64,000 nucleotides of DNA from a virus. Each line of letters begins with the position of its first letter. Positions within the stretch are counted from its first letter, which is position 1. Location of the stretch: positions 1-64,000 of the IMG/VR virus record IMGVR_UViG_3300021963_000081, one strand, 5' to 3'. The position numbers were made by a program, and so were the translations under genes. Positions 2,718 to 62,300 of this stretch are shown one piece after another. A model generated the notes under the pieces. The model was not told the DNA's origin, did no database searches, and saw only the letters and a program-made list of their open reading frames with translations.

Positions 2718-2718
2718 T

Positions 2719-3417
2719 ATGCTCTCCGTAATTATGCCAACGATGTGGAAATTCCACTACACGGTGAGATTTCTAGAGCAGATTGTTAACTATGATGCCA
2801 TCGGCGAAATTATTGTCATCGACAACGAATCATCTAGCCGACCAGAATCTGCTGTATTCACTAATCCCAAAATCAGACTCATAGATTTTGGTAAAAATAT
2901 ATTTGTAAATCCTGCCTGGAATCACGGAGCATCTACTGCTCGTTACGATAATCTTTGTTTCTTGAGTGATGATGTGATTGTTGACTTGAGATCGTTTTAC
3001 GAAGCAGATAGGTATCTGACTGCCAATAAAGACAATTCAATTGGTTTACTTTGTGGATTGTGCGAGCATGAATTGCACAATCAACCAAAAATCTCAACTG
3101 GTGAGATAGAAATCTATTCCACAAACGAGAAGCCAGGAATTGGGTTTCATGGTGGGTTCTCTTACTTCTTTTGCAGAAAAGAATCTTATATGCCAATACC
3201 AGATAAACTTAAAATTGTATGTGGTGACGCTTATCTTTGGAATAAGATGAAAGAACTTGACAAAACTCATCATATGATGTATAATTACTTTTACTACAGC
3301 CCATGGAATGTTACAGTGAATTTCATCACCAAAACCGATGAGTTGGCGCAAATTTTACGCGAAGATCTAGAAAACTGGGATCGTATGATAGAAAATAAAG
3401 AGGTTATGTACTCATGA
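2719..3417 (+). CDS. GT-A fold (GT2-like) glycosyltransferase
   Basis: LSVIMPT, EIIVIDN, NIFVNPAWN, LCFLSDDV, KIVCGD. Confidence 0.8.
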   Translation: MLSVIMPTMWKFHYTVRFLEQIVNYDAIGEIIVIDNESSSRPESAVFTNPKIRLIDFGKNIFVNPAWNHGASTARYDNLCFLSDDVIVDLRSFYEADRYLTANKDNSIGLLCGLCEHELHNQPKISTGEIEIYSTNEKPGIGFHGGFSYFFCRKESYMPIPDKLKIVCGDAYLWNKMKELDKTHHMMYNYFYYSPWNVTVNFITKTDELAQILREDLENWDRMIENKEVMYS

Positions 3418-44748: not shown

Positions 44749-44764
44749 TTTCTAGGAAAAAAAC

Positions 44765-47700
44765 ATGGCAATTAAAACAGAATACGGAACAGTAGTTGTT
44801 GACACAAATCTAGTTCCTTATATGAGACCTATAGATATCGAGTTTACTGCTCGAAATCTCAAGCCATATAAAATCGGTAGTGTCTTTTTCGACGACATCG
44901 CCGTTAATCGCTTTTGTCAAGTTGGCAATAAAGTAGAAATTGATGCAAAGAAAGTTATTGCAATTACTTCAAATACGGCAACAGCACCAACCTCTGGTCA
45001 ATTAGTATACCAAGGATCGTCAAACGAAGCCGCATCATTTACCGCAACTGTTGATGCATATTATTCTGGTAACACAACGGTAATCCTTCGTTCGTTATCT
45101 GGAAATTTTGATGATACAGCTTCGTTGTTTATTGAAAATGGTTCTGGTGCAACTTATGCAAATGCAAGAATTGTCACTGTAAACGATTTCAATACATCAG
45201 ATTCTTTCTATGCTGGAGAAGGTGTTATTTCTCCACAATCAAATACGTTTGCGACAGTTATCGCAACGACTGGTGATGATGTTGTTTATCTAAATCAAAA
45301 TTATCATAATATTAATGTTGTTGCAACCAGCGGTTCTACGCTTGCCGATTATACTAGTAAGTTTAAGGTTGGTGATCTTGTATTCCAAACTGCAGATGGT
45401 CAAAACAGATATGACCTTGCAGCATTCCGCGGACATGTTGAATACATTAACACGACTGGTGGAGCAATTGCAATTCGTCCAATCGACGGAACATTAGTTG
45501 CTAATGCCACAAGCACTTCGACGAATGCAAACGCCAGACTCTGGTGTGTTACCGATACATCTTCGCCTAAACCACTCCACCTAAACTCATTTAATCTTTC
45601 TGGTTTTCCAGTAGATTCTTATCTTAAGAGCGTCGCAAACTCTGCAAACATTAAGATTATGGCATACACACATACATCAGGTGTGCTTGCAAATACATTA
45701 AATTCTGGATTGACACAAGTATTGCTTCCAACCAGTGCAAACACCTCAGGTGCTGCTGGCAATTTGATTTACTTTACTTCTGGAACATCAGCTGGATCTT
45801 TAAAACTAATTACAGCTGTAAGTGGAAGAACTGTAACTCTTGATTCAGCACTTGACCTAGATTACTCTTCAAATACAACATATTCTATTGGTAATTTTAT
45901 TGTTGATGATACTGGTTGCCTTGCTGGTGTGTTCAGCGTTCCAGCATATCCTGGATTTAAGTTTAAAACTGGTAATCGTGTATTAACAATCACTGACACT
46001 TCAACTGTAAGCGATCCAGATTACGCAATGCGCGCAGCTGGTTCATTTGTTGCAAGTGGCATATTAAAGACAACTCAAAGAATTCAAACAACACCAACAC
46101 TTCCACCTCTCCCTGAAGTGGATTCTGATGCGCTTGTTCGTCCAATTTCTCCAGCTGATAGATCGTATAATGCGGATGCAGTTAAAAATCCATCAACATC
46201 TTCTACTGGCTCAACGACACCAAGAATCAGCCTCGGAGATGGTTTGTCTCAAACATTCTTTACACCACGTCCAAAATCAAGCGCAAACAAGCAAGATTAT
46301 GGTATGTTCGTAAGTTCTGTTGATCTATTCTTTAAGAGTAAGCCATCAACATCTCTTGGTGCGATGCAGCTTCCAATCACATTGAAGATTGCAGAAGTTC
46401 AAAATGGTTATCCAACAAAGAACTATCTTGCTGCTAAGACAATTCAATGTAAGGATGTTAAGATTTCTACAGTTCCAAGCACGTCAAATACTTCAACTGT
46501 CACAAAGTTTACATTTGATGATCCAGTATTCTTAGAACCAGCTCGCGAATATGCGCTTGTTCTCGGATCTGACTCTCCAGATTATGAAGTATTCGTTGCA
46601 GAACTAGGTGCAGATGTTCTTGGTGCTACACCAACTCGTCGTATTTCCGAGCAGCCATACGCTGGTTCATTCTTCCGCTCACAAAACTCATCAACCTGGA
46701 CACCATATCAGAATCAAGATTTGATGTTTGTGATTAATAAAGCAGTGTTTTTTAATTCTGGAGACGGCACTGCAAGATTTACACTCGATGAAGCACCAGA
46801 AGCAAATAACTTTGTTGATAAAGTTATCTTGATGGCTTCTGATCTTGACTTCCCAGTGACTGACCTTTCTTACAGCCTTCGTGGTGTTTACGCAAACGGA
46901 TCTGGTCAAACTCAAGAAAGTGTCAGCGGTGTTGAATTGACTAAATTCTCGCCAGTTGAATATGGAACTATTCTTGATAAGTCAAATAAAACATCTATCA
47001 ATCGTCGTAAATTGCTCAAAGGCAACGCAAACAGCTTTATTTTAACAGTAACTATGTCAACAGGCGATGCTGATATTTCTCCAGTAGTAAATATCGAAAG
47101 ACTTGGTCTTACTGCATCTCGCTTCTTGATTAATAATGCTGGCATTCCAAATACTCAAATTTCTCTTTTGAGTTATGGTAGTGGATATAACGCAACGATC
47201 ACTTCTGCTAATGTTTCAAATGCTCAAGAAAATGTATTTGGAACTTCAGTTTCGACGTTAGTCGCAAATGCTGCGCTATATCGCCAATATATCTTTGCTA
47301 ATAACGCAAATATTGGTTTCTATGCAATCAATATTGCTGGTGGCGGTGGCTCTGGTGCAACTGGTTTCGCTGTTGCAAATACTGACGGTCAAAATACTGT
47401 CAACTACGTTGTTATTACCGATCCAGGCAGCGGATATCTAACCACTCCAACGATTCGAATCGTTTCTGGTAATGCAACACCAAATTCGAATGCAACAGCA
47501 GTAGTCGCTGGAGAAACAGGCAAATCTGGTGGTAATATCCAGGCGAAGTATGTAACTCGAGAAATTGTTCTAGAAGATGGCTTCGAGTCTGGTGATATTC
47601 GTGTGTTTATGGACGCGATCCGCCCAACTGGAACAGATGTCAATGTTTACTATAAAGTTAAATCAGTAGACGATAATGATCGCTTTAGCGATAAAAGCTG

Positions 47701-47935
47701 GCAGTTAATGTTCAAATATAAGGACATTTACTCTAAGAGTCCTAGATCTCTTATTGGTTTAGAGTTTAGACCAGACTTATTAGAAAACAGACTTTCATAT
47801 GTTGAAAATGGAGTTACTTACCCTATTGGCGGTAAATTTAAGTCCTTTGCGATTAAGGTTGTATTGACCTCTTCTGATCCATCATTAGTACCTAAAGTTA
47901 GAAATCTTCGTATTATTGCGACCCCAGAAGGTTAA
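44765..47935 (+). CDS. VrlC-like virion structural protein (C-terminal part)
   Basis: VPYMRPIDIEF.ARNLKP, LSQTFF, VSSVDLFFKSK, TKFTFDDPVFL, GSFFRSQNSSTWTP.Q..DL.F, PKVRNLRIIA. Confidence 0.82.
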   Translation: MAIKTEYGTVVVDTNLVPYMRPIDIEFTARNLKPYKIGSVFFDDIAVNRFCQVGNKVEIDAKKVIAITSNTATAPTSGQLVYQGSSNEAASFTATVDAYYSGNTTVILRSLSGNFDDTASLFIENGSGATYANARIVTVNDFNTSDSFYAGEGVISPQSNTFATVIATTGDDVVYLNQNYHNINVVATSGSTLADYTSKFKVGDLVFQTADGQNRYDLAAFRGHVEYINTTGGAIAIRPIDGTLVANATSTSTNANARLWCVTDTSSPKPLHLNSFNLSGFPVDSYLKSVANSANIKIMAYTHTSGVLANTLNSGLTQVLLPTSANTSGAAGNLIYFTSGTSAGSLKLITAVSGRTVTLDSALDLDYSSNTTYSIGNFIVDDTGCLAGVFSVPAYPGFKFKTGNRVLTITDTSTVSDPDYAMRAAGSFVASGILKTTQRIQTTPTLPPLPEVDSDALVRPISPADRSYNADAVKNPSTSSTGSTTPRISLGDGLSQTFFTPRPKSSANKQDYGMFVSSVDLFFKSKPSTSLGAMQLPITLKIAEVQNGYPTKNYLAAKTIQCKDVKISTVPSTSNTSTVTKFTFDDPVFLEPAREYALVLGSDSPDYEVFVAELGADVLGATPTRRISEQPYAGSFFRSQNSSTWTPYQNQDLMFVINKAVFFNSGDGTARFTLDEAPEANNFVDKVILMASDLDFPVTDLSYSLRGVYANGSGQTQESVSGVELTKFSPVEYGTILDKSNKTSINRRKLLKGNANSFILTVTMSTGDADISPVVNIERLGLTASRFLINNAGIPNTQISLLSYGSGYNATITSANVSNAQENVFGTSVSTLVANAALYRQYIFANNANIGFYAINIAGGGGSGATGFAVANTDGQNTVNYVVITDPGSGYLTTPTIRIVSGNATPNSNATAVVAGETGKSGGNIQAKYVTREIVLEDGFESGDIRVFMDAIRPTGTDVNVYYKVKSVDDNDRFSDKSWQLMFKYKDIYSKSPRSLIGLEFRPDLLENRLSYVENGVTYPIGGKFKSFAIKVVLTSSDPSLVPKVRNLRIIATPEG

Positions 47936-48164: not shown

Positions 48165-50954
48165 ATGGCAAATACAGTTAATGTAGGCATTACAACAACA
48201 GCCTGTACTTTCAATCAGTGGCGTATCACCGACAATCTCATGGCGAACGACGTCAACGAGATTGCTCGTGGCAATTTCGTGAAGGCGACTGGAAATGTTA
48301 CCATTTCTAATGGATTCCTTCTTCTTGCAAACTCCTCTGGTGGCGTTATTCTAGATGTTCGTGATGATACGAACATCGACGGAACACTTACCGTAAAAGA
48401 TATCGAAGTTGATAACTCAACTGGTCACGTCTATGTTGATGCTGGCGATATCTGGTTCCGTCGTATGGGCTCGGCAGATCGTTTCTGGAGCAACACGAAC
48501 ACAACATTCTTCTGTTCTAATGTTTCTGTAACAAACGCAGAAGTCGGAACTTTGAATGTAAACAATCAGATGGTGACGGTAAATACCTCCATCTTTAATG
48601 TTGCAAATACTAATCTTGCAGCAACGATGAACGTCCACCCAGCCAATGTTTGGGTATTTGGCGCAAACTTAACTATTCAGAATACTTCTTCTGGATCTTT
48701 AAATGTCTTTAATAGACTATTGCACGTTAACTCTGGTAATTCGTTCTTCGGAAATACTTCTGCGCTTGCAACATTCAATGTCCATCCAGCAAATGTCAAT
48801 TTCTTCGGCACGAATGTAACCGTATCGAATACAACTGCTGGATCACTAAACGTTGATAATCGTCTTGTGATGGTTACAACGCCAAATATTTTCTTCTCAA
48901 ATACTCACTCATCAGCCAGATTTAATGTAAATCCAAATACTTACTTCCATGGCGGTGAGGTAAATGTTGCAAATACTGCGCTTACTTCTACTGTAAACGT
49001 CCATACTGGTAATGTATTCTTCTTCAGCGGAAATGTTACAGTATCAAATACAACTGGTGGCTCTCTAAATGTCGACAATAGACTTGTTATGGTGACAACA
49101 CCTAACATCTATTTCTCGAATACACATTCTTCTGCTCGCTTCAATGTAAATCCAAACACCTTCTTTACTGGTGGCGAAGTCAACGTATCAAATACGGCAT
49201 TGACTTCTACAATGAACGTTCACCCTGCAAATGTTTGGTTCTTTGGTGCAAATGTAACAGTATCAAACACCAGCGATGGTTCATTTAATGTTGATAATCG
49301 TTTGGTCAGAGTAACATCACCAAATGTGATCTATGCAAACACTCATGCTTCCGCAAGATTCAATGTATTCCCAAATACATTCTTCCATGGTGGATTAGTA
49401 AACGTTGCAAACACTTCACAATTTGCTACCGTTAACATTACACCAAACACTTGGATTTTTGCAAACCTAAACGTTGGATCAAACCTTGAAGTCACTGCAA
49501 ACACTTTCTTGTATTCGAACCTAGCGGTATCTAAGAATACACTAATTTCTCAAAATGCAAACGTCGTTGGAACATTCAATGTAACTTCTACTGCTGAAGT
49601 AACTGGAAACACTTCGCTCTATTCAAACCTCGCTGTATCTAAGAATACAACGATGTCGCAAAACGCGAATGTATCTGGTACGATGAATGTTGGTTCAATA
49701 CTAGCAGTCACTGGCAACACTGAACTTCTATCCAACCTTGCGGTTTCTAAGAATACGACGTTGAGCCAAAACGCTAATGTCCTAGGAACTCTCAATGTAA
49801 CATCTTTCCTCGATGTTGGTGCAAATACAGCGATTGCTGGCAATTTAGCGGTATCACGGAACACCTCTACTGGTAACTTGAGTGTTACACAAAATGTCGC
49901 TGCTGGAAATATTGCTGCAGCAAATGCTGTTTTTACAAATAATCTAGCAGCAGGAAATCTTTCTGTTTCTGGTCTATCTAACTCTACTTGCGCAAACATT
50001 ACTACGCTTTGGGTTCAAGACCTAACAGTACAGAATGCCATTGCTGCTCCTGCAACAACGACAGGTTCTGAATATAGATTGCGCGTTAGCCAAGGTTCAC
50101 GCCAAGATGGTTTCTTTGGCGTTGGACTTGGAACTACTGCAAATGGTAATGCATGGTTAAGATTTGATACTTCAGCTGGCAATGTTTGGCGTGCAACGGC
50201 AAATAGCACTGAAGGAACTTACTATACGATTATTACGCGCCAAAATGTATCTGATGATGTTGCAACAACTGATTCATCAAATGTTGCATCACTCACTGCA
50301 GTTAGAATCGCGAATGCAAATGCTCTTGCTGCGTTGGCTGCGGCAAACTCAGGAGCCAATTCTGTTTGGGTCTATGCTTACGGTGGTTCTGTTCTTTCGA
50401 ACGCAAATCTAAACTTCATCAATACTGCTTCTGTGAATGCATTTGCTGCTGCAAATGGTTCAACTCAAGCCAACGTATCGTTTGCAATGAACACTGCAAA
50501 CATTGTGGCAATTGGTACTGGCGCAGCTGCTCTTACGATTTCGCCAAACACTACGATTTCTCAAAATCTAACTGTAAGCGGTAATCTAACTGTCACAGGA
50601 AATATTACTGGTACATTGAAGTCGACAAAAGACTCGCTCACAACTGCTACGGTTTCAGGTGCGACGACTGTTAACTTGAATAACGGTAACTGGTTTAGAT
50701 ATACATTGACAGGAACTCCAACGTTTACATTCGCGAATGCTCCAGCCTCTGGAAATGCAATGACAGTAACGTTGTTAGTATTGCAAAACGGAACAGGAGG
50801 ATATACGCCAGCTTGGGGTAATACAATCTACTGGGCAGGTGGTCAAGTGCCTCCTGCATCTACTGGAGCGAATAAACTTGATATGTGGACATTCACAACA
50901 ACAGATGGTGGAAGTACGTTTATCGGAACATTGGCTGTTAAAGACGCGAGATAA
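48165..50954 (+). CDS. Tail-fibre-like protein with beta-repeats and C-terminal fibre-tip domain
   Basis: TFNQWR N-terminus; ~65-aa and ~40-aa Asn/Val/Thr repeats; C-terminal VNLNNGNWF..TLTG..TFTF.N.P...W...I.WAGG..P...DMWTF.T.DGG. Confidence 0.75.
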   Translation: MANTVNVGITTTACTFNQWRITDNLMANDVNEIARGNFVKATGNVTISNGFLLLANSSGGVILDVRDDTNIDGTLTVKDIEVDNSTGHVYVDAGDIWFRRMGSADRFWSNTNTTFFCSNVSVTNAEVGTLNVNNQMVTVNTSIFNVANTNLAATMNVHPANVWVFGANLTIQNTSSGSLNVFNRLLHVNSGNSFFGNTSALATFNVHPANVNFFGTNVTVSNTTAGSLNVDNRLVMVTTPNIFFSNTHSSARFNVNPNTYFHGGEVNVANTALTSTVNVHTGNVFFFSGNVTVSNTTGGSLNVDNRLVMVTTPNIYFSNTHSSARFNVNPNTFFTGGEVNVSNTALTSTMNVHPANVWFFGANVTVSNTSDGSFNVDNRLVRVTSPNVIYANTHASARFNVFPNTFFHGGLVNVANTSQFATVNITPNTWIFANLNVGSNLEVTANTFLYSNLAVSKNTLISQNANVVGTFNVTSTAEVTGNTSLYSNLAVSKNTTMSQNANVSGTMNVGSILAVTGNTELLSNLAVSKNTTLSQNANVLGTLNVTSFLDVGANTAIAGNLAVSRNTSTGNLSVTQNVAAGNIAAANAVFTNNLAAGNLSVSGLSNSTCANITTLWVQDLTVQNAIAAPATTTGSEYRLRVSQGSRQDGFFGVGLGTTANGNAWLRFDTSAGNVWRATANSTEGTYYTIITRQNVSDDVATTDSSNVASLTAVRIANANALAALAAANSGANSVWVYAYGGSVLSNANLNFINTASVNAFAAANGSTQANVSFAMNTANIVAIGTGAAALTISPNTTISQNLTVSGNLTVTGNITGTLKSTKDSLTTATVSGATTVNLNNGNWFRYTLTGTPTFTFANAPASGNAMTVTLLVLQNGTGGYTPAWGNTIYWAGGQVPPASTGANKLDMWTFTTTDGGSTFIGTLAVKDAR

Positions 50955-50959
50955 TCGCC

Positions 50960-53041
50960 ATGCCAAGACCGTTTGAATTAAATAAAACGTGGATAGTTGG
51001 ACCATCTAGAGGCACAACCTCATTCAATGCACCAAGCAGCATCACCATTGATTATGGTCGTCATGTTGCTTCAGTCTCAGGTCGCGGTGGGTCAGGAAAT
51101 GCGCCTGCAGCTGCCACTTGGGTGACGAATTATAATACCAATTATAACGTTGCATATCCAATTGCAAATCAACCAGCTGTTGCTTGGACCATCAATTATA
51201 GTAGCAATTATAATGTTGCGTATCCGATTGCGACTCAGCCAGAAGCAGCACGTCCAGGTACAGCATGGACAATTAACTATAATGCTGCTGTGTATCCAAT
51301 CGCTAATCAACCAGAAGCAGCTCGACCAGCAGCTGCTTGGACGATTAACTACACTTCAAATTATAATATTGCTTATCCAGAAGCAGGTCGCCCTGTCACT
51401 GCATGGGTAATTAATTATAATTCAAATTACAACGTTGCTTATCCAGAAGCAGCAAGACCTGTTACTGCTTGGACGATCAATTACAACACTAACTACAATG
51501 TTGCTTATCCGATTGCGGCGCAACCAGAAGTTGCTAGACCATCAACTGCTTGGACCATCAATTATAATGTTGCATATCCAGAAGCCGCTAGACCAGTAAC
51601 TGCTTGGACAATCAATTACAATGCTGCTGTGTATCCGATTGCAAATAGACCAGAGGCTGCTCGACCAGCAACAGCATGGACAATTAACTATAACGTAGCA
51701 TACCCAGAGGCAGGTCGACCACCAACAGCTTGGGTTATTAATTATAACACAAATTACAACGTTGCATATCCAGAAGCTGCTCGTCCTGTAAGTGCATGGA
51801 CGATCAATTATAACACCAACTATAATGTCGCATATCCGATTGCGAACCAACCTGTTGCTGGTGTTGATTGGTTTAGAACATGGTCGGTTAATGGGTTTCC
51901 ATATGTATTTTCTGTAGAACCAATTGAAGTTGGGAATTCGCAAAATGCACTCACTCCACTTCCTGCATATGGAAGTAGCCCTAATCTTCCAGGAAGCCCA
52001 GAAACCATCGGAAACTTTAATTTTATGCCTGATGGTCAATTTGGTGAGTTGAGTGCTCAATATTCTTTACTTGGCACAAATTACAATACCAACTATAACG
52101 TAGCATATCCAGTGGCTACCAGACCAGAAGCTGCTCGACCAGCAACTGCTTGGACGATTAACTATAATACTGCTGTGTATCCGATTGCAACTAGACCAGA
52201 AGCCAACCGCCCAGTTACTGCATGGACGATCACTTATAACACAGTAAGACCAGAAGCAACTCGTCCTGCAACTGCTTGGACTATCAATTACAATACCAAC
52301 TATAATGTTGCCTATCCAGAAGCAACTAGACCAGCGACTGCTTGGACTATTAACTATAACGTAGTATATCCAGAAGCAACTCGACCAGCGACTGCTTGGA
52401 CAATTAACTACAATACCAATTACAACGTCGCATACCCAATCGCAACACAACCAGAAGCTGCGCGTCCAGCCACTGCTTGGACTATCAACTACAATACAGT
52501 ATATCCAATCGCAACACAACCAGAGGCGGCTCGTCCAGGAACTGCGTGGACAATTACTTACAATGCTGCTGTATATCCAATTGCCAATCAACCAGAAGCA
52601 ACAAGACCAGTGACTGCCTGGACGATCAATTATAACACGAATTATAATGTGGCATACCCAGAAGCTGCTCGCCCAGCGACTGCTTGGACCATTAATTACA
52701 ATACAAACTATAATGTTGCATATCCGATCGCCAATCAACCAGAAGCGGCTCGACCAGCGACAGTATACAACACCAATTATAATATCGCATATCCAATTGC
52801 CAGTCAGCCGATCGCCAATCAACCGATCACATCTTATGCACCAGGAAATGTGGGAACACCAACTAATGTTCTTGGCGTTTACTTCCCAGGTGGTCCAATA
52901 GATCTTTCAGGATTTGGTGGTCCTTCAGGAACTGCTCCTTATGTTCCGTCAACTGAAGTAGTCTACTGGAGTTTCCCAGACTTCCAAAATCATCCAGTTA
53001 GTGTTCCTCCAGGTGGGTCAATCGACGTTAACATTGAATAA
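50960..53041 (+). CDS. Self-complementary repeat protein A (base - 11 repeats - knob - 11 repeats - base)
   Basis: 693-aa ORF made of TINY/NTNY/NVAY and PIANQ/PEAAR/PATAW units; unique centre at about 51863-52072. Confidence 0.9.
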   Translation: MPRPFELNKTWIVGPSRGTTSFNAPSSITIDYGRHVASVSGRGGSGNAPAAATWVTNYNTNYNVAYPIANQPAVAWTINYSSNYNVAYPIATQPEAARPGTAWTINYNAAVYPIANQPEAARPAAAWTINYTSNYNIAYPEAGRPVTAWVINYNSNYNVAYPEAARPVTAWTINYNTNYNVAYPIAAQPEVARPSTAWTINYNVAYPEAARPVTAWTINYNAAVYPIANRPEAARPATAWTINYNVAYPEAGRPPTAWVINYNTNYNVAYPEAARPVSAWTINYNTNYNVAYPIANQPVAGVDWFRTWSVNGFPYVFSVEPIEVGNSQNALTPLPAYGSSPNLPGSPETIGNFNFMPDGQFGELSAQYSLLGTNYNTNYNVAYPVATRPEAARPATAWTINYNTAVYPIATRPEANRPVTAWTITYNTVRPEATRPATAWTINYNTNYNVAYPEATRPATAWTINYNVVYPEATRPATAWTINYNTNYNVAYPIATQPEAARPATAWTINYNTVYPIATQPEAARPGTAWTITYNAAVYPIANQPEATRPVTAWTINYNTNYNVAYPEAARPATAWTINYNTNYNVAYPIANQPEAARPATVYNTNYNIAYPIASQPIANQPITSYAPGNVGTPTNVLGVYFPGGPIDLSGFGGPSGTAPYVPSTEVVYWSFPDFQNHPVSVPPGGSIDVNIE

Positions 53042-55062
53042 TAGAAACGAATAAATAAGTACAATGCCTTTGGGTATTGGTGCCCATTTCTGGAAAAATA
53101 ATGCCAAAAAGTTCCGATTTAAGTAAAAGCTGGCTGGGCGGAAGTTCTCGTGGAACACAAACGTTTAATGCGCCTTCGTCTCTAACGATTCCATACGGTC
53201 GTTACATTGGTAACGTCACAGGTCGTGGTGGATCTGGCAATGCACCAACAGCTTCTGCGTGGACGATCAACTATAATACAAATTATAACGTAGCATATCC
53301 GATTGCGAATCAACCAGAGGCAGCGAGACCACCAACTGCTTGGACGATTAATTATAATACTAACTATAATGTTGCATACCCAGAAGCTGCACGTCCAGTA
53401 ACTGCTTGGACGATCAATTACAATACGAATTACAACGTCGCTTATCCATTAGCGAATCAGCCAGAAGCCGCTAGACCAGCGACTGCTTGGACAATTAATT
53501 ATAATACTAACTATAACGTTGCTTACCCAATCGCCAATAGACCAGAAGCGGCTAGACCAGCAACAACATGGTCAGTGAACTACAACGTTGCTTATCCGAT
53601 TGCGACACAACCAGAAGCGACTCGACCTGTAACCGCATATACTTCTAACTACAACGTTGCATATCCAATTGCTAACCAGCCAGCAAATGCTTGGACGATT
53701 AATTATAATACTAACTACAACGTTGCATATCCAATTGCTAACCAGCCAGCAAATGCTTGGACGATTAATTATAATACTAACTACAACGTTGCATATCCAA
53801 TAGCAAATAGACCAGAAGCTGCACGACCAGCAACAGCGTGGGTGATCAATTACAACACAAACTACAACGTTGCATATCCAATTGCGAATAGACCAGAAGC
53901 CGCAAGACCAGTGACTGCTTGGTCAACTAACTACAACGTCGCATATCCAGTTGCGAATCAGCCAGAAGCCGCAAGACCTGTGACTGCATATTCAACGAAT
54001 TATAATGTCGCGTATCCAGTGGCTAATCAGCCGATTGCCAATCAGCCAGTTGCCAACTATAATCCACCGAACGCTTATTTCTCCAATTACGTGGTGAACG
54101 CTACCGTATACGGTCCGTACGGTTACAACACGTTTTATGATTATGGATACTATGGTCCTGGATGTCCATCAGCGACATACGAAACGTATTATGATCCTTA
54201 TTTTAATTATTATATAACAGTATACACAACTTTTCCATGCACTGGTTCAGGAAATAGCGCAAATTATAACACAAACTATAACACCAACTACAACGTTGCA
54301 TACCCGATTGCCAATCAACCAGCCAATGCATGGGTGATCAATTACAATACTAATTACAACGTTGCATATCCAATCTCGACGCAGCCAGCCAATGCTTGGG
54401 TAATTAATTATAACACCAACTATAACGTTGCGTATCCGATTGCCAATCAGCCAGAAGCAGCAAGACCTGTTACTGCATGGGTAATTAATTACAATACCAA
54501 TTATAATGTCGCGTACCCAATTGCGACCCAACCAGAAGCTGCTCGTCCCGTTACAGCATGGTCAACAAATTATAACGTTGCGTACCCAATCGCCAATAGA
54601 CCAGAAGCAGCTCGACCAGTCACTGCTTGGTCAACTAACTACAACGTTGCTTATCCGCTCGCAAATCAACCAGCGACTGCATGGACTATCAACTATAATA
54701 CAAATTATAACGTAGCATACCCAGAAGCAAATCGTCCTGTTAATGCTTGGACAATTAACTACAATACCAATTACAACGTCGCTTATCCATTAGCGAATCA
54801 GCCAGAAGCCGCTAGACCTGCTACCGCATGGACCATCAATTATAATTCAAACTATAACGTGGCGTACCCAATCGCAACACAACCAGAAGCAGCAAGACCT
54901 GCTACCACTTGGACTATCAACTACAATACAGTATATCCAATCGCCACGCAGCCAGAAGCTGCCAGACCACCAACTGCTTGGACCATCAATTATAACACCA
55001 ATTACAACGTTGCTTACCCAATTGCCAATCAACCAGAAGCAGCAAGACCAGTGACAACATAT
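51122..55062 (+). repeat. 44 degenerate coding repeats (18-27 aa) in four arms
   Basis: Arms at about 51122-51862, 52073-52837, 53263-54060 and 54259-55062; heavy synonymous divergence. Confidence 0.9.
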
Positions 55063-55266
55063 TCTCCAGGAAACACTGGATCGCCAACCAATGTTCTTGG
55101 TGTCACTTTCCCAGGTGGACCAATTGATCTCTCAGGCTTTGCTGGTCCTCCAGGAACTGCTCCTACTGTTGGTCCAACACAAGTAAGTTATTACAGTTAT
55201 CCTGACGGCGCAAATTATCCTGTTTCTGTTCCTCCAGGTGGACAAATAGTTGTAACACTCGCATAA
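53101..55266 (+). CDS. Self-complementary repeat protein B, paralogue of A
   Basis: ATG 53101 aligns with the start of A (MPKSS/MPRPF); same units; Tyr-rich centre with two Cys at about 54061-54258. Confidence 0.9.
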   Translation: MPKSSDLSKSWLGGSSRGTQTFNAPSSLTIPYGRYIGNVTGRGGSGNAPTASAWTINYNTNYNVAYPIANQPEAARPPTAWTINYNTNYNVAYPEAARPVTAWTINYNTNYNVAYPLANQPEAARPATAWTINYNTNYNVAYPIANRPEAARPATTWSVNYNVAYPIATQPEATRPVTAYTSNYNVAYPIANQPANAWTINYNTNYNVAYPIANQPANAWTINYNTNYNVAYPIANRPEAARPATAWVINYNTNYNVAYPIANRPEAARPVTAWSTNYNVAYPVANQPEAARPVTAYSTNYNVAYPVANQPIANQPVANYNPPNAYFSNYVVNATVYGPYGYNTFYDYGYYGPGCPSATYETYYDPYFNYYITVYTTFPCTGSGNSANYNTNYNTNYNVAYPIANQPANAWVINYNTNYNVAYPISTQPANAWVINYNTNYNVAYPIANQPEAARPVTAWVINYNTNYNVAYPIATQPEAARPVTAWSTNYNVAYPIANRPEAARPVTAWSTNYNVAYPLANQPATAWTINYNTNYNVAYPEANRPVNAWTINYNTNYNVAYPLANQPEAARPATAWTINYNSNYNVAYPIATQPEAARPATTWTINYNTVYPIATQPEAARPPTAWTINYNTNYNVAYPIANQPEAARPVTTYSPGNTGSPTNVLGVTFPGGPIDLSGFAGPPGTAPTVGPTQVSYYSYPDGANYPVSVPPGGQIVVTLA

Positions 55267-55316
55267 ATAGTTTATAATATAATTTTGTTTTCGCAATAAC
55301 ATTTGAGGTGGTCATT

Positions 55317-55919
55317 ATGCCGTATCCTATTCCTCAGTATAACAAAATGCTGAATGAGTTCTGTGTTGCCAATGGAGCATTCACAGAAGAAGAAGTTGAT
55401 AAAATTGTTGATTTAGAAGATTTGCAAAAGTTTCAGCGCGGAGGAATTGGCGGAACTGGCGGTCCTGGGTCGGTCGACAAAAAAGTCCGCGACAGTGATG
55501 TGCAGTGGATAATGCACGACCAACATTCAGATTGGTTATTCCAAAAATTTGCTTATCTGACCTCAATGGTCAATTACGATCACTTCATGTATAATATTGA
55601 CGGTTTTGATAATTTTCAATACACTGTTTATCGCGCAAAAACAAAACAACATTATGATTGGCATATGGATGCTGGTGGACCATGGACACCGTATGTCAGA
55701 AAACTCAGTGCAGTAATTATTCTTTCAGATCCAGATGATTATGAAGGTGGAGAATTCCAGTGTGTTCTTAATGGTCAAGTAGAAAATCTAATGACAGTTA
55801 AGCCACCTCGTGGTGACGCAATCTTTTTCCCAGCTTGGATGCCCCATAGAGTAACACCAGTAACAAAAGGTGTTCGCAAATCATTGGTCTCTTGGGTGAT
55901 GGGTAAAAGAGAAAAATAA
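55317..55919 (+). CDS. 2OG-Fe(II) oxygenase (prolyl-hydroxylase-like)
   Basis: QYTVY, HYDWHMD, RKLSAVIILSDPDDYEGGEF, FFPAWMPHRVTPVTKGVRKSLVSW. Confidence 0.9.
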   Translation: MPYPIPQYNKMLNEFCVANGAFTEEEVDKIVDLEDLQKFQRGGIGGTGGPGSVDKKVRDSDVQWIMHDQHSDWLFQKFAYLTSMVNYDHFMYNIDGFDNFQYTVYRAKTKQHYDWHMDAGGPWTPYVRKLSAVIILSDPDDYEGGEFQCVLNGQVENLMTVKPPRGDAIFFPAWMPHRVTPVTKGVRKSLVSWVMGKREK

Positions 55920-55931
55920 TTGGTTATTAAT

Positions 55932-56675
55932 ATGAATTTTAAAAAATTGGTGAAGTTCTGGGGTAATGATATCATTGAGTTTTATACAACACCAGATTTA
56001 ATTGAGGTCATTCCTGAACCGAGATCAGCAGTCAAAAATCTTCCAGAATGGTTTAAAGATTTAAGTCCTGCTTATGGGGCTGCAGATAATCAAAGAGATC
56101 AATTTGGCAATAAAAATATGACGGCAAAAAAGTGTTTGCCAATGCTAGATGCAATGTCTCTTGGATACACAATTCCCCTTGCAGCAGACCTTCATATCAT
56201 GAGCAACCACGATAATACTCAAATACATGTAACCAATCCTCCAGGATTAAAAGTTTGCGAGTTTCATGATGCAATGCAACTTGGTGGAAATAATAAACTC
56301 GGATTTAAACATGGAAACGCATTAAAATTTATAAATTATTGGCATATAAAGACAGCACCAGGTTGGTCTATTCTATTCACACCTCCATTCAATCATTTTG
56401 CACAACCATTTACTTGTTTAAGTGGATTTGTTGACACTGACGTTTATAGCAACGTTGTGAATTTTCCTGCTGTATTGAACATCTATGATGCAGATATACA
56501 TATACCTGCAGGCACTCCTATGGTCACAGCAATACCTGTAAAAAGAAATTCTTTTCCGAAAAAACCGCCTATTCGTAAGATGACGAAAAAAGAAGCCATG
56601 GAATTGCAAAAATTGCGAAGACGACAAGATACTAGAACTCATCACTATACCTATGAGTTGAGAAAGAGGGATTAA
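55932..56675 (+). CDS. Conserved phage protein of unknown function (possibly dUTPase-like beta fold)
   Basis: LPEWFK, TAKKCLPMLDAMSLGYTIP, WHIKTAPGWSILF, GFVDTD, IPAGTPMV.AIP. Confidence 0.7.
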   Translation: MNFKKLVKFWGNDIIEFYTTPDLIEVIPEPRSAVKNLPEWFKDLSPAYGAADNQRDQFGNKNMTAKKCLPMLDAMSLGYTIPLAADLHIMSNHDNTQIHVTNPPGLKVCEFHDAMQLGGNNKLGFKHGNALKFINYWHIKTAPGWSILFTPPFNHFAQPFTCLSGFVDTDVYSNVVNFPAVLNIYDADIHIPAGTPMVTAIPVKRNSFPKKPPIRKMTKKEAMELQKLRRRQDTRTHHYTYELRKRD

Positions 56676-56677
56676 TC

Positions 56678-57418
56678 ATGTTTAATTGGTTTAAGAAAGA
56701 TGATATTGATTTTAAATTTCTTGATGTTGCAGAAGGAATTGTATATCCACATTATCCACCAGTATTAGCAAAAGATATCAAGCCTCTTAAAGAATTTCAA
56801 GAAAACAAATATGGAGAATATAAATTTCCTGGTTGTCCAGGAATGCATGATTATGCTCGTTTAGGTTATATTATTCCTGCATGGAGCAATATTCATATCA
56901 AAGCAAACAAAGCTGGATTTATGGGAGTTGTAGGTTCTGTTGGTGAAGACAATCAAAAAAGGGGCACACAACTAAAACAACCCCAAAATATGGATACTGC
57001 TATTACAGATGGTCTTTTTGAAATCAATGGTGGAGTTAAATATAGTGTCTTAAATTTTCCTGGTCCATGGAAAATTAATTCTAATAAAAACGTCTCTTGT
57101 TTGTTGCTCCCTGCATACTTCCATAGCAATTTTCTAGACGATTTATATGTGTATCCAGGAATAGTAGACTATAAAGGATTTGGTACAGTAAATTTCATTT
57201 GCGCCCCAAAACGTCCATGTGAAATAGAAATTAAGGCTGGTGACCCTCTTTTGCATGTCATTCCATTTATAACAAATAAAGACATTGTTGCTTCTTATGG
57301 TCCTGCGACAAGAGAAGAAAATGATTACAATAAGATATTAAAGTGGTTTCATGAAAAGAATTTCTACAGAAAGTATTACATGATCCGTAAAAAATTTAAA
57401 CTGGTAAAAGATGTATGA
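56678..57418 (+). CDS. Paralogue of 55932-56675
   Basis: CPGMHDYARLGYIIPAW, PWKI, PGIVD, IKAGDPLLHVIP. Confidence 0.7.
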   Translation: MFNWFKKDDIDFKFLDVAEGIVYPHYPPVLAKDIKPLKEFQENKYGEYKFPGCPGMHDYARLGYIIPAWSNIHIKANKAGFMGVVGSVGEDNQKRGTQLKQPQNMDTAITDGLFEINGGVKYSVLNFPGPWKINSNKNVSCLLLPAYFHSNFLDDLYVYPGIVDYKGFGTVNFICAPKRPCEIEIKAGDPLLHVIPFITNKDIVASYGPATREENDYNKILKWFHEKNFYRKYYMIRKKFKLVKDV

Positions 57419-58368
57419 AAAAGATATTTGTAAACGTTTGCTCATATAGAGATAAACTTCTATTGCCTACAATCGAAAGTCTGATTGAAAATGAGTCAGG
57501 CAGAAATGAGATTGTCTATGGTGTTTTTGAGCAAACATCTCTTGCAGATAGTTTACAAACCAAAGCACCAGATCTGGTAAAAAAGACAAACATTCGATAT
57601 AAAAGAATTGATCCAGAATTTTCTGATGGTGTTGTTTGGGCGCGTTCTATTAATTCAATGCAGATCTATGAAGAAGAGTTTCAGTATCAAATCGACTCTC
57701 ACATGCTCTTTGATAAGGGGTGGGATCATTATCTAATTCTAGATTATTTGCATGCGTGTAAAGTTGCAGGACATGATCGAGTTCTTCTAACATGTGGAAC
57801 TAAAAACTTTGATCTTGATGGTGATCGAATTACCAAGCATACATTGACCGATGACATCTCAGTGAATCTTGGATATTATCAGTTTGATAAAAACATGAGA
57901 CTACACGCTCATGGTCCATGGGTTCCTGCTCGAGATGTAGTAAGTCCCTCTCGCCATATCTGCGCTGGTAACTTCTTTGCTCCAGCAAAATGGGTGAAGG
58001 AAGTTGGGTATAATACAAATATCTTCTTCGAAGGCGAAGAACAGATGTTTGCTCTTACTTCCTTCCTCAAGGGGTATAGCATTTATCATATGAGACGCGC
58101 GAAGGTTTATCATTATCTTCGTTCTGCGAATCACGAGACTAAACAGACCGTCAATCCAGTGGTCGATGCAAGACGATTGGATATGAATAAGAAACGATCT
58201 GAGAAAGAACTCAGTAACTTTATCTATTCTGTCGACGAAGCCAAGCTGGAAGAGTTTCGAAAACACACGGGAGTCGATTATATAAATAGGAAATTAGAGG
58301 AACGCGCAATTTCTCGCCATATTAAACCAGACGTAGAGATCGATTGGGAAATCCCGAATAAAGAGTAA
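57415..58368 (+). CDS. GT60-like (Skp1-hydroxyproline-type) GlcNAc transferase
   Basis: KIFVNVCSYRD, GVFEQ, GVVWAR, YQIDSHMLFDKGWD, AGNFF, FFEGEEQ, YHYL. Confidence 0.8.
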   Translation: MKKIFVNVCSYRDKLLLPTIESLIENESGRNEIVYGVFEQTSLADSLQTKAPDLVKKTNIRYKRIDPEFSDGVVWARSINSMQIYEEEFQYQIDSHMLFDKGWDHYLILDYLHACKVAGHDRVLLTCGTKNFDLDGDRITKHTLTDDISVNLGYYQFDKNMRLHAHGPWVPARDVVSPSRHICAGNFFAPAKWVKEVGYNTNIFFEGEEQMFALTSFLKGYSIYHMRRAKVYHYLRSANHETKQTVNPVVDARRLDMNKKRSEKELSNFIYSVDEAKLEEFRKHTGVDYINRKLEERAISRHIKPDVEIDWEIPNKE

Positions 58369-58997: not shown

Positions 58998-59333
58998 ATG
59001 GCTCAATTTATAGAATTAGACCTGGATCAAGGAACTGATTTCAATTTTGATTTAGACTTGACTCAAGATGACGGATCAGTCATAAACGTGACGAATTACA
59101 CGTTTTCTTCGTCCATACGAAAATCCTTTTATTCATCTGGCGTCACAGCAAATCTAACTGTGACGATACTCGACGCTGCAAATGGGAACGTTTTTCTAAA
59201 CCTCAATGCGGCAACAACCTCGAATATTAAAGCAGGTCGTTATTTGTTTGATGTCAAACAAATCGATAATGCTAATGTCACAACAAGACTTGTTGAGGGC
59301 ATCATCACAGTTAATCCGCAGGTAACTAAATGA
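58998..59333 (+). CDS. Small Ig-like/BppU-N-like structural adaptor
   Basis: [30 protein letters not shown]; precedes the fibre gene. Confidence 0.75.
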
Positions 59334-62300
59334 CAACAGTTAGAGTTTCGACAGGTCGTGGTTCTCAAGGATTAAGAGGTCCACAGGGTCCACAGGGTCC
59401 ACAAGGACCAACTGGTGCACAAGGTATACAGGGTCAGGCTGGTGGTCCACAAGGTCCTCAGGGCGCTGCTGGTGCAGCAGGTCCTCAGGGTCCTCAGGGT
59501 CCGCAGGGCGCAGCAGGTCCACAAGGACCACAAGGTGCTGGTCCTCAAGGTCCACAAGGACCACAAGGTTCTACTGGTCCTCAAGGACCACAAGGACCAC
59601 AAGGTGCTGGTCCTCAAGGTCCACAAGGACCACAAGGTTCTACTGGTCCTCAAGGACCACAAGGACCACAAGGTGCTGGTCCTCAAGGACCACAAGGACC
59701 ACAAGGACCACAAGGACCACAAGGTGCTGGTCCTCAAGGTCCACAAGGACCACAAGGACCACAAGGACCACAAGGTGCTGGTCCTCAAGGTCCACAGGGT
59801 CCATCTGGTCCACAAGGTCCACAAGGACCAAGTGGTCCAAATGCTGATGCTGCATATGATCAGGCTAATGCTGCTTATAGTCAGGCTAACTCAGCATATA
59901 ATGCTGCGAATAATGCTCAGACATCTGCTAATACAGCAAATACGAATGCATTGAATGCGTATGGTTCAGCTAACTCTTCAGCCAATACAGTAAGAGTTTC
60001 GCAAAATGGATCATCAACTCTAAGTAGTAAGCAATTAAACTTTATTAATACTTCAACGATTACTGTTACAGTAGCCTCTGCTGGTGATGGAACGAATGCG
60101 AATATTTCCTTCACAGCAGTTGGTGGTGCTGCTTATGATCAAGCAAATCTTGCATACACAGCTGCTAACTCTGCTCAGACTGCAGCCAATACTGCTAATA
60201 CTAATGCATTGAATGCTTATGGACAGGCTAATCTATCTTATACAGCTGCTAACTCTGCTCAGACTGCAGCCAATACTGCTAATACGAATGCACTGAATGC
60301 ATACAGTTCAGCCAACCTTGCTTATACGGCTGCTAACTCAGCACAAACTGCAGCAAATACAGCTAATACCAATGCTCTAAACGCTTATGGTGCTGCGAAT
60401 ACTGCTAATACCAATGCACTAAATGCTTATGGGAAAGCAAATAACTCGGCTAATACTGTTTGGGTTTATGCTAATGGATCTTCTATCCTTTCTAACGGCA
60501 ATCTGAATTTTAATAATACTGCAACCATTAATGTTTCTGCATCAGCAAATGGTTCTGGACAATCTAATGTAGAATTTTCTGTTAATGCTAATTCATTTAC
60601 CTTAATTGGGCGTCCAACTTCTGCATTAACTCTTGCATCTAATGTAACTGTTTCGCAAGATATGACAGTTACTGGGAATCTTTTTGTTCAGGGTGATAGC
60701 GTAACATTTAATGTCTCAACACTCAAAGTTGAAGACAATGAAATTATTTTAAACTCTAGTAACACTGGAATTGCTCCTGCTGTTGATGCATTAATTACTG
60801 TAGAAAGAGGAACTTCAACTGATACATATTTAAAATGGAACGAGACAACGGATAAATGGACTTGGAGTGACGATGGAACAACAGCTTATAACTTCAGCAC
60901 CTCACTGAGTGCATATGCTCAAGCGAATTCTGCTTACGGACAAGCAAATCTAGCATACACAGCAGCTAACACTGCTCAAACTTCTTCTAATACAGTTTAT
61001 GCTCAAGCAAATCTAGCATATACCGCCGCAAATTCTGCTCAGACTGCAGCGAATACAGCAAATACGAATGCATTGAATGCATATGGTGCTGCAAACTCTG
61101 CTGCGAATACTGTAAGAGTTTCTTCAAATGGAGGCTCGACGCTTTCTGGCAAGCAACTAAACTTTATCAACACATCAACTATTACTGTTACAGTGGCTTC
61201 TGCTGGTGATGGAACTAATGCAAATATTTCGTTTACAGCAGTAGGTGGTGCTGCTTACGATCAGGCTAATGCTGCTTATGGTCAGGCTAATTTAGCCTAC
61301 ACTCAAGCAAACACTGCTCGATCCGATGCTAATACAACATTCGCTACCATCAACACAACCTTTGGTACGACAAATACAACCTTTGGTACTATTAACACTA
61401 ATTACCAAGCAGCATATTCTCAAGCAAATCTAGCGGCTAACACTGTTGCTGTTTATGCCAATGGTACATTGACTTATGCTAACTCTAACGTAAACTTTAA
61501 CAACACTGCAACAGTCAACGTTTCCACATCAGCAAATACAACTAATAAGTTTACTAACGTTGCATTCAGTGTAAATGTTTCTTCCAGTGACTGGGCAAGT
61601 TCTGCTAATGGTGTTGCGCAATCGGCTTATGCTAAAGCAAATTCTGCTGCAAATAATGTTGCAATTTTTGCTAATGGTACAGTTGTTCTATCAAATGCTA
61701 ATGTAAACTTTAACAATACTGCAACTATTAACGTTGCTGCAACTGCTAATGGTACTGGACAAGTTAACGTAGCATTTTCGATGAACACTTCTTCAATTAG
61801 CGCAGGTCCTTCTGGTCCATCTGGTCCATCTGGTCCACAAGGACCAACTGGCGACACTGGACCTCAAGGTCCACAAGGTCCTCAAGGTGTTGCTGGACCA
61901 CAAGGATCTACTGGTCCTCAAGGACCACAAGGTCCACAAGGTCCGCAAGGTATTGTTGGTCCTCAAGGTCCTCAAGGTCCACAAGGTGCTGGTCCACAAG
62001 GACCACAAGGTCCGCAAGGTATTGTTGGTCCTCAAGGTCCTCAAGGTCCACAAGGTGCTGGTCCACAAGGACCACAAGGTCCGCAAGGTGTCACTGGTGC
62101 ACAAGGTCCACAAGGACCACAAGGACCATCTGGTGCACAAGGTGATGCATCAAATGTTGCAGGTCCACAAGGACCACAAGGACCACAAGGACCGCAGGGA
62201 AATTCAGTTACTGGTCCACAAGGTCCACAGGGACCACAAGGTCCACTTGGCAGTTTAGGTCCTCAAGGTCCTCAGGGTTCAATTGGTCCACAGGGTCCGA

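What the first reader, a model, noticed from the sequence alone, without database searches (positions are those of the whole stretch)
50960..55266. Two proteins that are peptide-level reverse-complement palindromes (barcoded protein hairpins)
Seen: each repeat is a block of 2 or 3 short units (TINY/NTNY/NVAY; N) plus a block of 2 or 3 Pro-initiated 5-mers (PIANQ/PEAAR/PATAW; P). Protein A, (N,P) counts: N-arm 32 33 23 32 32 33 22 23 22 32 32; C-arm 23 23 22 32 22 33 23 23 32 33 23. Protein B: N-arm 33 32 33 33 23 22 32 33 33 23 23; C-arm 32 32 33 33 23 22 32 33 33 23 33. In both, the C-arm digit string is the exact reverse of the N-arm, so every N block faces an equal-sized P block (22/22 each; the innermost block needs a boundary choice). 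Random-order odds are 1/C(22,11) = 1/705432 and 1/C(22,7) = 1/170544. The two barcodes differ and the DNA is not an inverted repeat. Inference: each chain folds back as a ~250-265-residue-per-arm antiparallel hairpin, tens of nm long, whose aperiodic pattern fixes the register and discourages A/B cross-pairing. I know of no described protein family with this grammar.
Basis: partly seen in the sequence, partly recalled or inferred. Interest (0 to 1): 0.97.

Follow-up and report, generated by a model that had tools for sequence, protein, structure and literature searches.

The report
Fold-back phage fibres with mirror-coded arms
Two neighbouring tail-fibre genes of an uncultured T4-like phage encode proteins whose first and second halves match block for block when one is read backwards, so each chain most likely runs out, turns at a swappable tip domain and runs back.

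Summary
In protein A (50960-53041) and protein B (53077/53101-55266), block sizes in the C-terminal arm are the reverse of those in the N-terminal arm, so Asn/Tyr blocks face Pro blocks of equal unit count. The only deviation is one extra unit in the innermost C-arm block, which recurs in relatives.

Evidence from relatives:
- Over 51 distinct barcodes, 383 of 398 digits obey the mirror. Shuffled repeat order gives 250±9, and a direct-repeat reading gives 203.
- Relatives differ by compensating indels in both arms.
- Arm lengths stay equal from 248 to 871 aa (r=0.986).
- A second rule peaks only in the exact mirror register. Ile/Val at N-block residue 2 faces a P block holding a PE..R unit: 403/428 pairs, against 261/372 and 255/371 one repeat off.

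The centre is a swappable cassette. In two AlphaFold models the termini seem to form one small sandwich. The arms themselves were not modelled.

No Pfam, PHROG, PDB or cultured-phage relative was found. The closest analogues are the T4 gp37 needle and streptococcal AgI/II stalks. This scan noted similar mirror-arm fibres before, in at least 47 other genomes.

The parts
50960..51121 (+). Protein A, conserved N-terminal segment (aa 1-54); modelled as part of one sandwich with the C-terminal segment
   Evidence: Coordinates. pLDDT is 83-93 for aa 21-50. VIA alignments of 84-96 residues with low-confidence stretches trimmed exceed the ~72-residue C-terminal segment.
51122..51871 (+). Protein A, N arm (aa 55-304): 11 repeats, barcode 32 33 23 32 32 33 22 23 22 32 32
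51872..52072 (+). Protein A, central domain (aa 305-371), the proposed distal tip and a swappable cassette
   Evidence: 19% identity to L009_8000 here, against 91-100% in every other part. The same centre type sits on unrelated arms in P0002/3/8/10 and L022.
52073..52837 (+). Protein A, C arm (aa 372-626): 11 repeats, barcode [3]3 23 22 32 22 33 23 23 32 33 23
52838..53041 (+). Protein A, conserved C-terminal segment (aa 627-693) and stop codon
   Evidence: pLDDT 85-96. Conserved family-wide.
53077..53262 (+). Protein B, N-terminal segment (aa 1-62 from the TTG at 53077; likely start is the ATG at 53101)
53263..54060 (+). Protein B, N arm (aa 63-328): barcode 33 32 33 33 23 22 32 33 33 23 23
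54061..54255 (+). Protein B, central domain (aa 329-393), the two-cysteine type that is the commonest in the family
54256..55062 (+). Protein B, C arm (aa 394-662): barcode [4]2 32 33 33 23 22 32 33 33 23 33
55063..55266 (+). Protein B, conserved C-terminal segment (aa 663-729) and stop codon
55308..58368 (+). Syntenic cassette behind the fibre genes: 2OG-Fe(II) oxygenase, two DUF6065-like genes and a GlcNAc-type glycosyltransferase. Possibly modifies these proteins; this is inference.
   Evidence: Pfam hits. Found behind the family genes in 41, 41, 38 and 38 of 43 related loci.

Best explanation
A and B are paralogous fibre (stalk) proteins of the host-recognition module of a T4-like myovirus. 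Each chain runs out along its N arm, turns at the central domain and runs back along its C arm. Every Asn/Tyr block (4-residue units) therefore lies against a Pro block (5-residue units) of the same unit count from the other arm.

The conserved N- and C-terminal segments meet at the base and form one small beta-sandwich. The variable, cassette-like central domain sits at the far tip and probably binds the host.

The aperiodic order of 2- and 3-unit blocks, together with a residue rule, makes one register the best fit. The rule is that Ile/Val at N-block residue 2 faces a PE..R unit, while Thr/Ser faces only PI..Q units.

Shown here: the mirror rule, its conservation through compensating changes, the register-specific residue covariation, equal arm lengths, the centre swap and the gene context.

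Inferred: physical pairing, pairing within one chain, the tip function, and a length of roughly 70-80 nm if the N blocks are extended strands. The oligomeric state is unknown; a trimer is a guess from other phage fibres.
For: Mirror rule:
- B has 61 complementary units with no mismatch. A has 57 with one.
- 549/566 digits match over 67 proteins. Over 51 distinct barcodes 383/398 match, against 250.2±8.7 (max 278) in 2000 shuffles of C-arm repeat order. A direct-repeat reading gives 203/398 and a same-type mirror 198/398.
- Long independent barcodes are exact: L010_7949 (871 aa) 26/26, L021_241 20/20, L016_8781 18/18. L011_8000 is 22/24 by program and 24/24 by eye.

Compensating indels, read by eye:
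- P0005 against P0009, P0024 against P0094, P0046 against P0109 and L011_8000 against L013_8000 each gain one repeat in both arms.
- P0020 against P0021 swap digits on both sides.
- L029 uses 4-unit blocks, also mirrored.

Arm lengths are equal whatever the repeat grammar. In 70 proteins of 248-871 aa, r=0.986 and slope 0.988.

Residue covariation is confined to the exact mirror partner:
- Total mutual information has z=14.2. Shifted or same-strand partners give z=0.4-3.8.
- The I/V rule holds in 403/428 distinct pairs in register, 261/372 and 255/371 at ±1 repeat, and 160/295 and 151/291 at ±2. B alone scores 22/22.
- The strongest cells run loosely anti-diagonal.

Termini: both AF2 models give pLDDT 83-97 only to the N- and C-terminal segments. 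VIA aligns 84-97 residues of them to single jelly-roll domains.

Centre swap: A against L009_8000 is 94% and 91% identical in the arms and 19% in the centre.

Context: the genes lie downstream of gp48-, gp5-, gp6-, gp7- and gp8/10-like baseplate genes and a 929-aa fibre gene. The upstream fibre is conserved in 39/43 loci.
Against: - No structure supports the model. AF2 had the whole chain and still left the arms unstructured, at pLDDT about 30-45.
- Five database proteins have unequal arms by eye: P0001, P0034, P0075, P0077 and P0079.
- 12 of 67 proteins have at least one mismatched digit, and 25 of 428 code pairs are discordant.
- Length outliers exist: P0079, P0059, P0077 and P0093.
- The strongest covarying residues (N positions 2-3 with P positions 7-10) sit about one unit away from the naive in-line partner.
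- A 4-residue unit facing a 5-residue unit needs a geometry I cannot specify.
- The fold matches of the terminal sandwich are weak, Z at most 5.1.
- All database homologues come from metagenome assemblies, which can collapse repeats. P0089 equals L021_241 residues 1-65 plus 560-661 at 100% identity.
Confidence: 0.78

Rival explanations
1. The arms pair antiparallel but between chains. The N arm of one molecule lies on the C arm of another, giving head-to-tail dimers or longer assemblies with the central domains in the middle.
For: Every sequence rule found here would be satisfied equally: the mirror block sizes, the compensating indels and the register-specific I/V-PE rule. Naturally split forms exist in which one ORF carries the N-terminal domain and the next ORF carries the C-terminal domain. 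So pairing in trans is conceivable in this family.
Against: AF2 places the N- and C-terminal segments of one chain in one small domain. The centre behaves as a swappable cassette, as expected of a free tip. Phage fibres are anchored at one end; that last point is established knowledge and was not tested here.
Confidence: 0.12
2. There is no pairing. The mirror pattern is a by-product of how the repeat arrays were duplicated, and the arms are flexible or fold locally.
For: B consists of four copies of a ~300-nt module at 73-80% identity. By my reading the module's barcode is self-complementary, so duplication alone spreads mirror symmetry. AF2 models the arms as unstructured.
Against: A, L010_7949 and L011_8000 are aperiodic yet exact. 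The direct-repeat reading fits only 203/398 digits. Residue covariation is absent for partners one or two repeats away and for same-strand neighbours, which duplication history does not predict. The DNA has no inverted repeat.
Confidence: 0.03
3. Both arms wrap a third partner that has two-fold or antiparallel symmetry. The partner might be the upstream 929-aa fibre or the downstream collagen-like protein. The mirror would then reflect the partner and not arm-arm contact.
For: The family genes are flanked by a fibre gene in 39/43 loci. A collagen-like gene lies downstream in 24/43 loci.
Against: The barcodes differ between A and B and among 51 variants, while the neighbouring genes are conserved. 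The I/V-PE rule links residues of the two arms to each other.
Confidence: 0.03
4. Assembly artefact in the window.
For: Repeat arrays are collapsed in some short metagenome contigs.
Against: Repeat copies in the window are only 60-85% identical in DNA. An independent record, L009, gives the same two barcodes.
Confidence: 0.01

Closest known systems
Receptor-binding tip of the phage T4 long tail fibre protein gp37 (PDB 2XGF) and like tips in lambda Stf and Bas63
   Same: The chain doubles back at a small head domain and returns to a collar, so the needle is made of out-and-back strands with the receptor-binding part at the turn (passages read in PMC12609058, and PMC7291167). Here too, the conserved ends appear to meet and a variable domain sits mid-sequence.
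   Different: The gp37 needle is held by HxH motifs that bind iron (PMC6957217 passage; PMC12609058). A and B have no His in the arms and no HxH. There is no sequence relation to any PDB chain (best E 0.086). Here the whole protein folds back, not only a C-terminal tip. The arms are 250-375 residues long and are built of alternating Asn/Tyr and Pro blocks with a size barcode.
Streptococcal antigen I/II adhesins (SpaP, BspA)
   Same: A fold-back stalk is made by pairing a non-proline repeat region with a proline-rich repeat region of the same chain, and it lifts a variable domain more than 50 nm. [quoted passage not shown] Tyr/Asn blocks facing Pro blocks is the same idea.
   Different: In AgI/II one arm is all A repeats and the other all P repeats. 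That the A repeats are alpha-helical and the P repeats polyproline II is recalled, not read. Here each arm alternates both block types, which is what creates the barcode. The units are 4 and 5 residues, there are no heptads and no LPxTG anchor, and the context is a phage. No sequence relation was found.
SMC/Rad50/MukB arms (recalled from my own knowledge; not tested here)
   Same: A head formed from the N- and C-terminal ends, a long antiparallel intramolecular arm, and a central domain at the apex. Arm lengths co-vary.
   Different: Those arms are alpha-helical coiled coils in ATPases that act on DNA. Here the arms are proline-punctuated, non-helical by composition, and the genes lie in a virion fibre module.

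Membership tests
T4 gp37-type receptor-binding tip | HxH motifs along the needle that coordinate iron | tested here: not met
   There are 0 His residues in the arms of A and B and 0 HxH in either protein.
T4 gp37-type receptor-binding tip | Sequence or profile similarity to solved gp37-like tips | tested here: not met
   The profile of 45 family members against all PDB sequences gave a best E of 0.086, to unrelated enzymes. No Pfam or PHROG family was found.
T4 gp37-type receptor-binding tip | The chain doubles back at a head domain, and the collar holds both ends | tested here: inconclusive
   The mirror rules and equal arms imply it, and AF2 co-folds the ends. The arms themselves were not modelled.
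Antigen I/II adhesins | One arm of alanine-rich heptad repeats paired with one arm of proline-rich repeats | tested here: not met
   Both arms alternate 4-residue Asn/Tyr units and 5-residue Pro units. No heptad pattern is visible in the sequence.
Antigen I/II adhesins | LPxTG cell-wall anchor and signal peptide | tested here: not met
   There is no LPxTG in A or B. The genes lie in a phage baseplate and fibre module. The signal peptide was not tested.
Collagen-like or polyglycine-II fibres (collagen; S16 gp38-type adhesins, recalled) | Glycine at every third residue, or glycine-rich motifs | tested here: not met
   Gly is 6 of 505 arm residues in A and 0 of 535 in B, and there are no GXY runs.
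Pfam Phage-MuB_C (PF09077) | A match to the domain that passes as a stretch of its own | tested here: not met
   B scores E 1.7e-11 for the whole protein, but 0 stretches pass. The best stretch covers 29 residues of a 78-position profile, inside the repeats. I read this as a repeat-composition match.
TNF/C1q-like jelly-roll domains (for the terminal sandwich only) | Fold similarity well above background | tested here: inconclusive
   The best Z is 4.9 and 5.1, with 85-97 residues aligned at rmsd 3.1-3.9 Å. This is within the range the tool calls common.

The most novel reading that the evidence does not exclude
These proteins are a peptide analogue of a nucleic-acid hairpin. Two strand types must face each other. 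A block-length barcode and a residue rule (Ile/Val opposite Glu..Arg, Thr/Ser opposite Ile..Gln) set one register over some 55-60 units. The fibre lengthens or shortens in evolution only by compensating changes in both arms. The tip in the middle of the gene is exchanged as a cassette. If so, this is a new, programmable principle for building self-registering protein rods. It may also depend on the hydroxylase and GlcNAc-transferase cassette that follows the genes in 41 and 38 of 43 loci.
Probability: 0.4. Interest if true: 0.92.

Novelty: new variant of a known kind. Interest (0 to 1): 0.82.

Why it matters
If the model holds, it describes a fibre architecture with no solved example and no named family, and it occurs across uncultured T4-like aquatic phages.

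- **Host range.** The host-binding part sits in the middle of the gene, not at the C-terminus. That changes how host-range determinants should be sought and engineered in these phages.
- **Methods.** Indel and residue covariation between two halves of one protein can reveal long-range topology where AlphaFold fails.
- **Design.** The barcode suggests a natural route to rods of set length that find their own register.
- **Assembly caution.** Short metagenome contigs collapse these arrays, so 'exceptions' need long reads before they are believed.

Tried and rejected
Searches for relatives that found nothing:
- Megablast of the region and tblastn of A against 50,697 phage records gave no match. 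The BLAST low-complexity filter was on.
- Pfam and PHROGs gave no family for A or B beyond a repeat-composition hit to Phage-MuB_C.
- The PDB sequence profile search found nothing below E 0.086. The ESM Atlas gave no usable hit.

Structure prediction:
- AlphaFold2 was run on A with 39 sequences and on P0078 with 45. Mean pLDDT was 43.6 and 63.4, and the arms and centres stayed below 50. No contact pattern could be read.
- The VIA wide search of both models gave only weak jelly-roll matches, Z at most 5.1.

Analyses that did not hold:
- My first unit-code test asked whether the type of a 2-unit P block tracks the last unit of the facing N block. It was significant in A+B ([[6,0],[2,6]], p=0.0097) but not family-wide (105/196 concordant against 101±3.8 shuffled). 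I dropped that feature for the I/V-PE rule.
- The DNA inverted-repeat explanation is rejected.
- The T4 late-promoter motif TATAAATA occurs 6 times against 3.0 expected, with none just upstream of A or B.
- My parsers do not read the other repeat grammars of the family (P0002-like 8-mers, P0026-like, L033, L036, L038, L049, L041_5798). Those proteins, together with fragments, were dropped before the counts. They enter only the arm-length test and by-eye notes.

Literature:
- Searches for a prior description: 'cyanophage' + 'tail fiber' + 'folds back' returned 0 papers. 'tail fiber' + 'doubles back' + 'phage' returned 1 paper, on Bas63. The prolyl hydroxylase, cyanophage, tail fiber and glycosyltransferase search returned 35 papers, of which 12 were listed; none concerns this by title.
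- In PMC7029224 I read passages only. It describes the host-recognition cluster of pelagimyophages but not these proteins.
- The PMC3004832 passages did not describe the gp37 tip.
- Supplementary files were not opened.

Full report
**What is there.** The window is the first 64 kb of an 86,279-bp IMG/VR virus record. Upstream lie T4-type baseplate genes: tube cap, hub-lysozyme and wedge subunits. By the gp6-like protein, the nearest cultured relatives are Methylophilales phage Melnitz and Pelagibacter phage HTVC008M, at 34-41% identity. Two giant proteins and a 929-aa fibre protein follow. Next come A (50960-53041, 693 aa) and B (53077-55266; the likely start is the ATG at 53101). Each protein has five parts: a conserved N-terminal segment of about 55 aa, an arm of 11 repeats, a central domain of 65-67 aa, a second arm of 11 repeats, and a conserved C-terminal segment of 67 aa. 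A repeat is a block of 2-3 four-residue Asn/Tyr units followed by a block of 2-3 five-residue Pro-initiated units. The arms contain no His and almost no Gly.

**Checking the observation.** Read from the outer ends inward, each N block of one arm equals in unit count the P block it would face in the other arm. The one deviation is an extra unit in the innermost C-arm N block, and it recurs throughout the family. Two mechanical parsers agree. One gives B 22/22 digits and A 16/16 over the repeats it could parse. The other gives B 61 complementary units without a mismatch and A 57 with one. The DNA holds only 14-24-nt imperfect inverted repeats. B's odds are inflated, because B is four copies of a module at 73-80% DNA identity whose barcode, by my reading, is itself self-complementary. 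A is aperiodic.

**The family.** It is rare and unnamed:
- 48 representatives at E≤1e-3 among 1.84 billion proteins.
- 31 and 76 clusters in two word-index searches.
- 43 IMG/VR loci. In 17 of the 42 loci that hold family ORFs there are two or three adjacent paralogues, as in the window.
- No Pfam, PHROG, PDB or cultured-phage match.

Of the proteins my parser could read, 55 of 67 match at every compared digit, 549/566 in all. Over 51 distinct barcodes 383/398 match. That compares with 250.2±8.7 (max 278) when C-arm repeat order is shuffled, 203/398 for a direct-repeat reading and 198/398 for a same-type mirror. Long, unrelated barcodes are exact, for example 26/26 in an 871-aa protein.

Relatives differ by compensating changes, read by eye:
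- One extra repeat in both arms: P0005/P0009, P0024/P0094, P0046/P0109 and L011_8000/L013_8000.
- Digit swaps on both sides: P0020/P0021.
- A 22-residue variant P block in L010_5585 faces 3-unit blocks, so it behaves as a 3 with a loop.
- L029 uses 4-unit blocks, also mirrored.

Independently of any grammar, the distance from the N-terminal domain to the first centre cysteine tracks the distance from the second cysteine to the C-terminal domain. This holds in 70 proteins of 248-871 aa, with r=0.986 and slope 0.988.

**A second, independent signal.** For 245 distinct pairs of 12-residue N blocks and 15-residue P blocks, I computed mutual information between a block and its exact mirror partner. 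It exceeds within-protein partner shuffles by z=14.2. For partners one or two repeats off, and for the P block next to it in the chain, z is 0.4-3.8. The rule is simple. Ile/Val at N-block residue 2 goes with a PE..R unit in the facing P block. Thr/Ser goes with PI..Q units only. The counts:
- Exact mirror register: 403/428 distinct pairs concordant.
- One repeat off: 261/372 and 255/371.
- Two repeats off: 160/295 and 151/291.
- P block of the same repeat: 344/523.
- B alone: 22/22 in register, 14/20 at ±1 and 9/18 at ±2.
- A has too few Thr/Ser blocks to be informative.

The strongest cells run loosely anti-diagonal (N1-P13, N2/3-P7-10, N5-P8, N6-P2). They are offset by about one unit from a naive in-line pairing.

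**Topology.** AlphaFold2 left the arms unstructured in both runs. It gave pLDDT 83-97 to the two terminal segments. Structural alignments of 84-97 residues to single jelly-roll domains need both segments, because the C-terminal one is only about 72 residues. So the models place the two ends in one domain. The matches themselves are weak, Z at most 5.1. The centre is a cassette. A and its relative L009_8000 are 100%, 94%, 91% and 96% identical in the N-term, N arm, C arm and C-term, but 19% identical in the centre. A's centre type also occurs on unrelated arms. I read this as a distal, host-binding tip.

**Against the model.**
- Five database proteins have unequal arms: P0001, P0034, P0075, P0077 and P0079.
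- One search shows a few length outliers.
- At least some short forms are collapsed arrays. P0089, from a 969-bp contig, equals residues 1-65 plus 560-661 of L021_241 at 100% identity. That the five exceptions are such artefacts is unproven.
- Pairing between chains fits every sequence rule equally well.

**Comparison with what is known.** The gp37 tip doubles back at its head to give a six-stranded needle (PMC12609058 and PMC7291167, passages read). It relies on HxH-iron sites, which are absent here. AgI/II adhesins pair a Tyr/Asn-bearing repeat arm with a Pro-rich arm, carry a variable domain at the tip and lock their termini (PMC7732690, passages read). There each arm is of one type only. 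I found no paper on this family. Earlier notes of this scan describe similar mirror-arm fibres in at least 47 other genomes.

**Verdict.** Antiparallel pairing of the arms is very likely, and an intra-chain fold-back is the best reading at 0.78. It is a new variant of the fold-back stalk kind.

Noticed in passing
window 55308-58368: A 2OG-Fe(II) oxygenase (PF13640), two DUF6065-like genes and a GlcNAc-type glycosyltransferase (PF11397) directly follow the fibre genes. They do so in 41, 41, 38 and 38 of 43 related loci. This may mean hydroxyproline-GlcNAc modification of the Pro blocks, by analogy with Skp1; the analogy is recalled and untested.
   Followed up: partly
window 59330-64000 (runs off the end): A giant ORF with collagen triple-helix repeats (Pfam E 1.3e-97) and 209 GXY triplets in runs of 10 or more. 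A like gene lies downstream in 24 of 43 related loci. It is an alternative substrate for the hydroxylase.
   Followed up: partly
L037, L041, L044, L045, L046 (e.g. L041:241-2568 and 2553-4184): Split forms of the family. One ORF has the N-terminal domain, arms and a centre, but ends in a Hint-like module (Pfam AXH 1.4e-10, Hint 1.2e-5). The next, overlapping ORF has arms, centres and the C-terminal domain only. This may be a protein-ligation or cleavage device; I could not tell.
   Followed up: partly
window 48165-50954: A 929-aa repeat protein with a weak bactofilin-like match and a tail-fibre-like C-terminus. It ends 5 nt before A's start codon and lies upstream of the family genes in 39 of 43 loci.
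   Followed up: partly
window 51542-52060 and 52067-52822, minus strand: Two long open frames (172 and 251 aa) run antisense through gene A. They are probably a by-product of the repeat's codon make-up; this was not examined.
   Followed up: no
L033, L036, L038, L049, L041:5799-8450: Family members with the same termini and centre but quite different arm repeats: 14- and 19-residue periods, and Gly/Asn/Tyr-rich or Cys-rich units. L033, L036, L038 and L049 keep equal arm lengths; L041:5799-8450 was not in that test. Their own pairing grammar was not worked out.
   Followed up: partly
window 53328-54968: Gene B holds four copies of a ~300-nt module at 73-80% identity, spaced 351, 639 and 351 nt apart (family D5). 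The module's barcode, 32 33 33 23, reads as self-complementary. This suggests the arms grow by duplicating palindromic modules.
   Followed up: partly
P0089, P0103, P0096, P0090 (database proteins of 166-193 aa): 'Centre-less' short forms are the two ends of 554-672-aa proteins joined across the repeats. Identity over the aligned parts is 83-100%, and P0089 is 100%. They come from ~1-kb contigs, so they are most likely collapsed assemblies.
   Followed up: yes
window 40237-47935: Two giant proteins (1503 and 1056 aa) match phrog_358, of unknown function, and the first also matches DUF4815. They sit between the baseplate wedge genes and the fibre genes.
   Followed up: no
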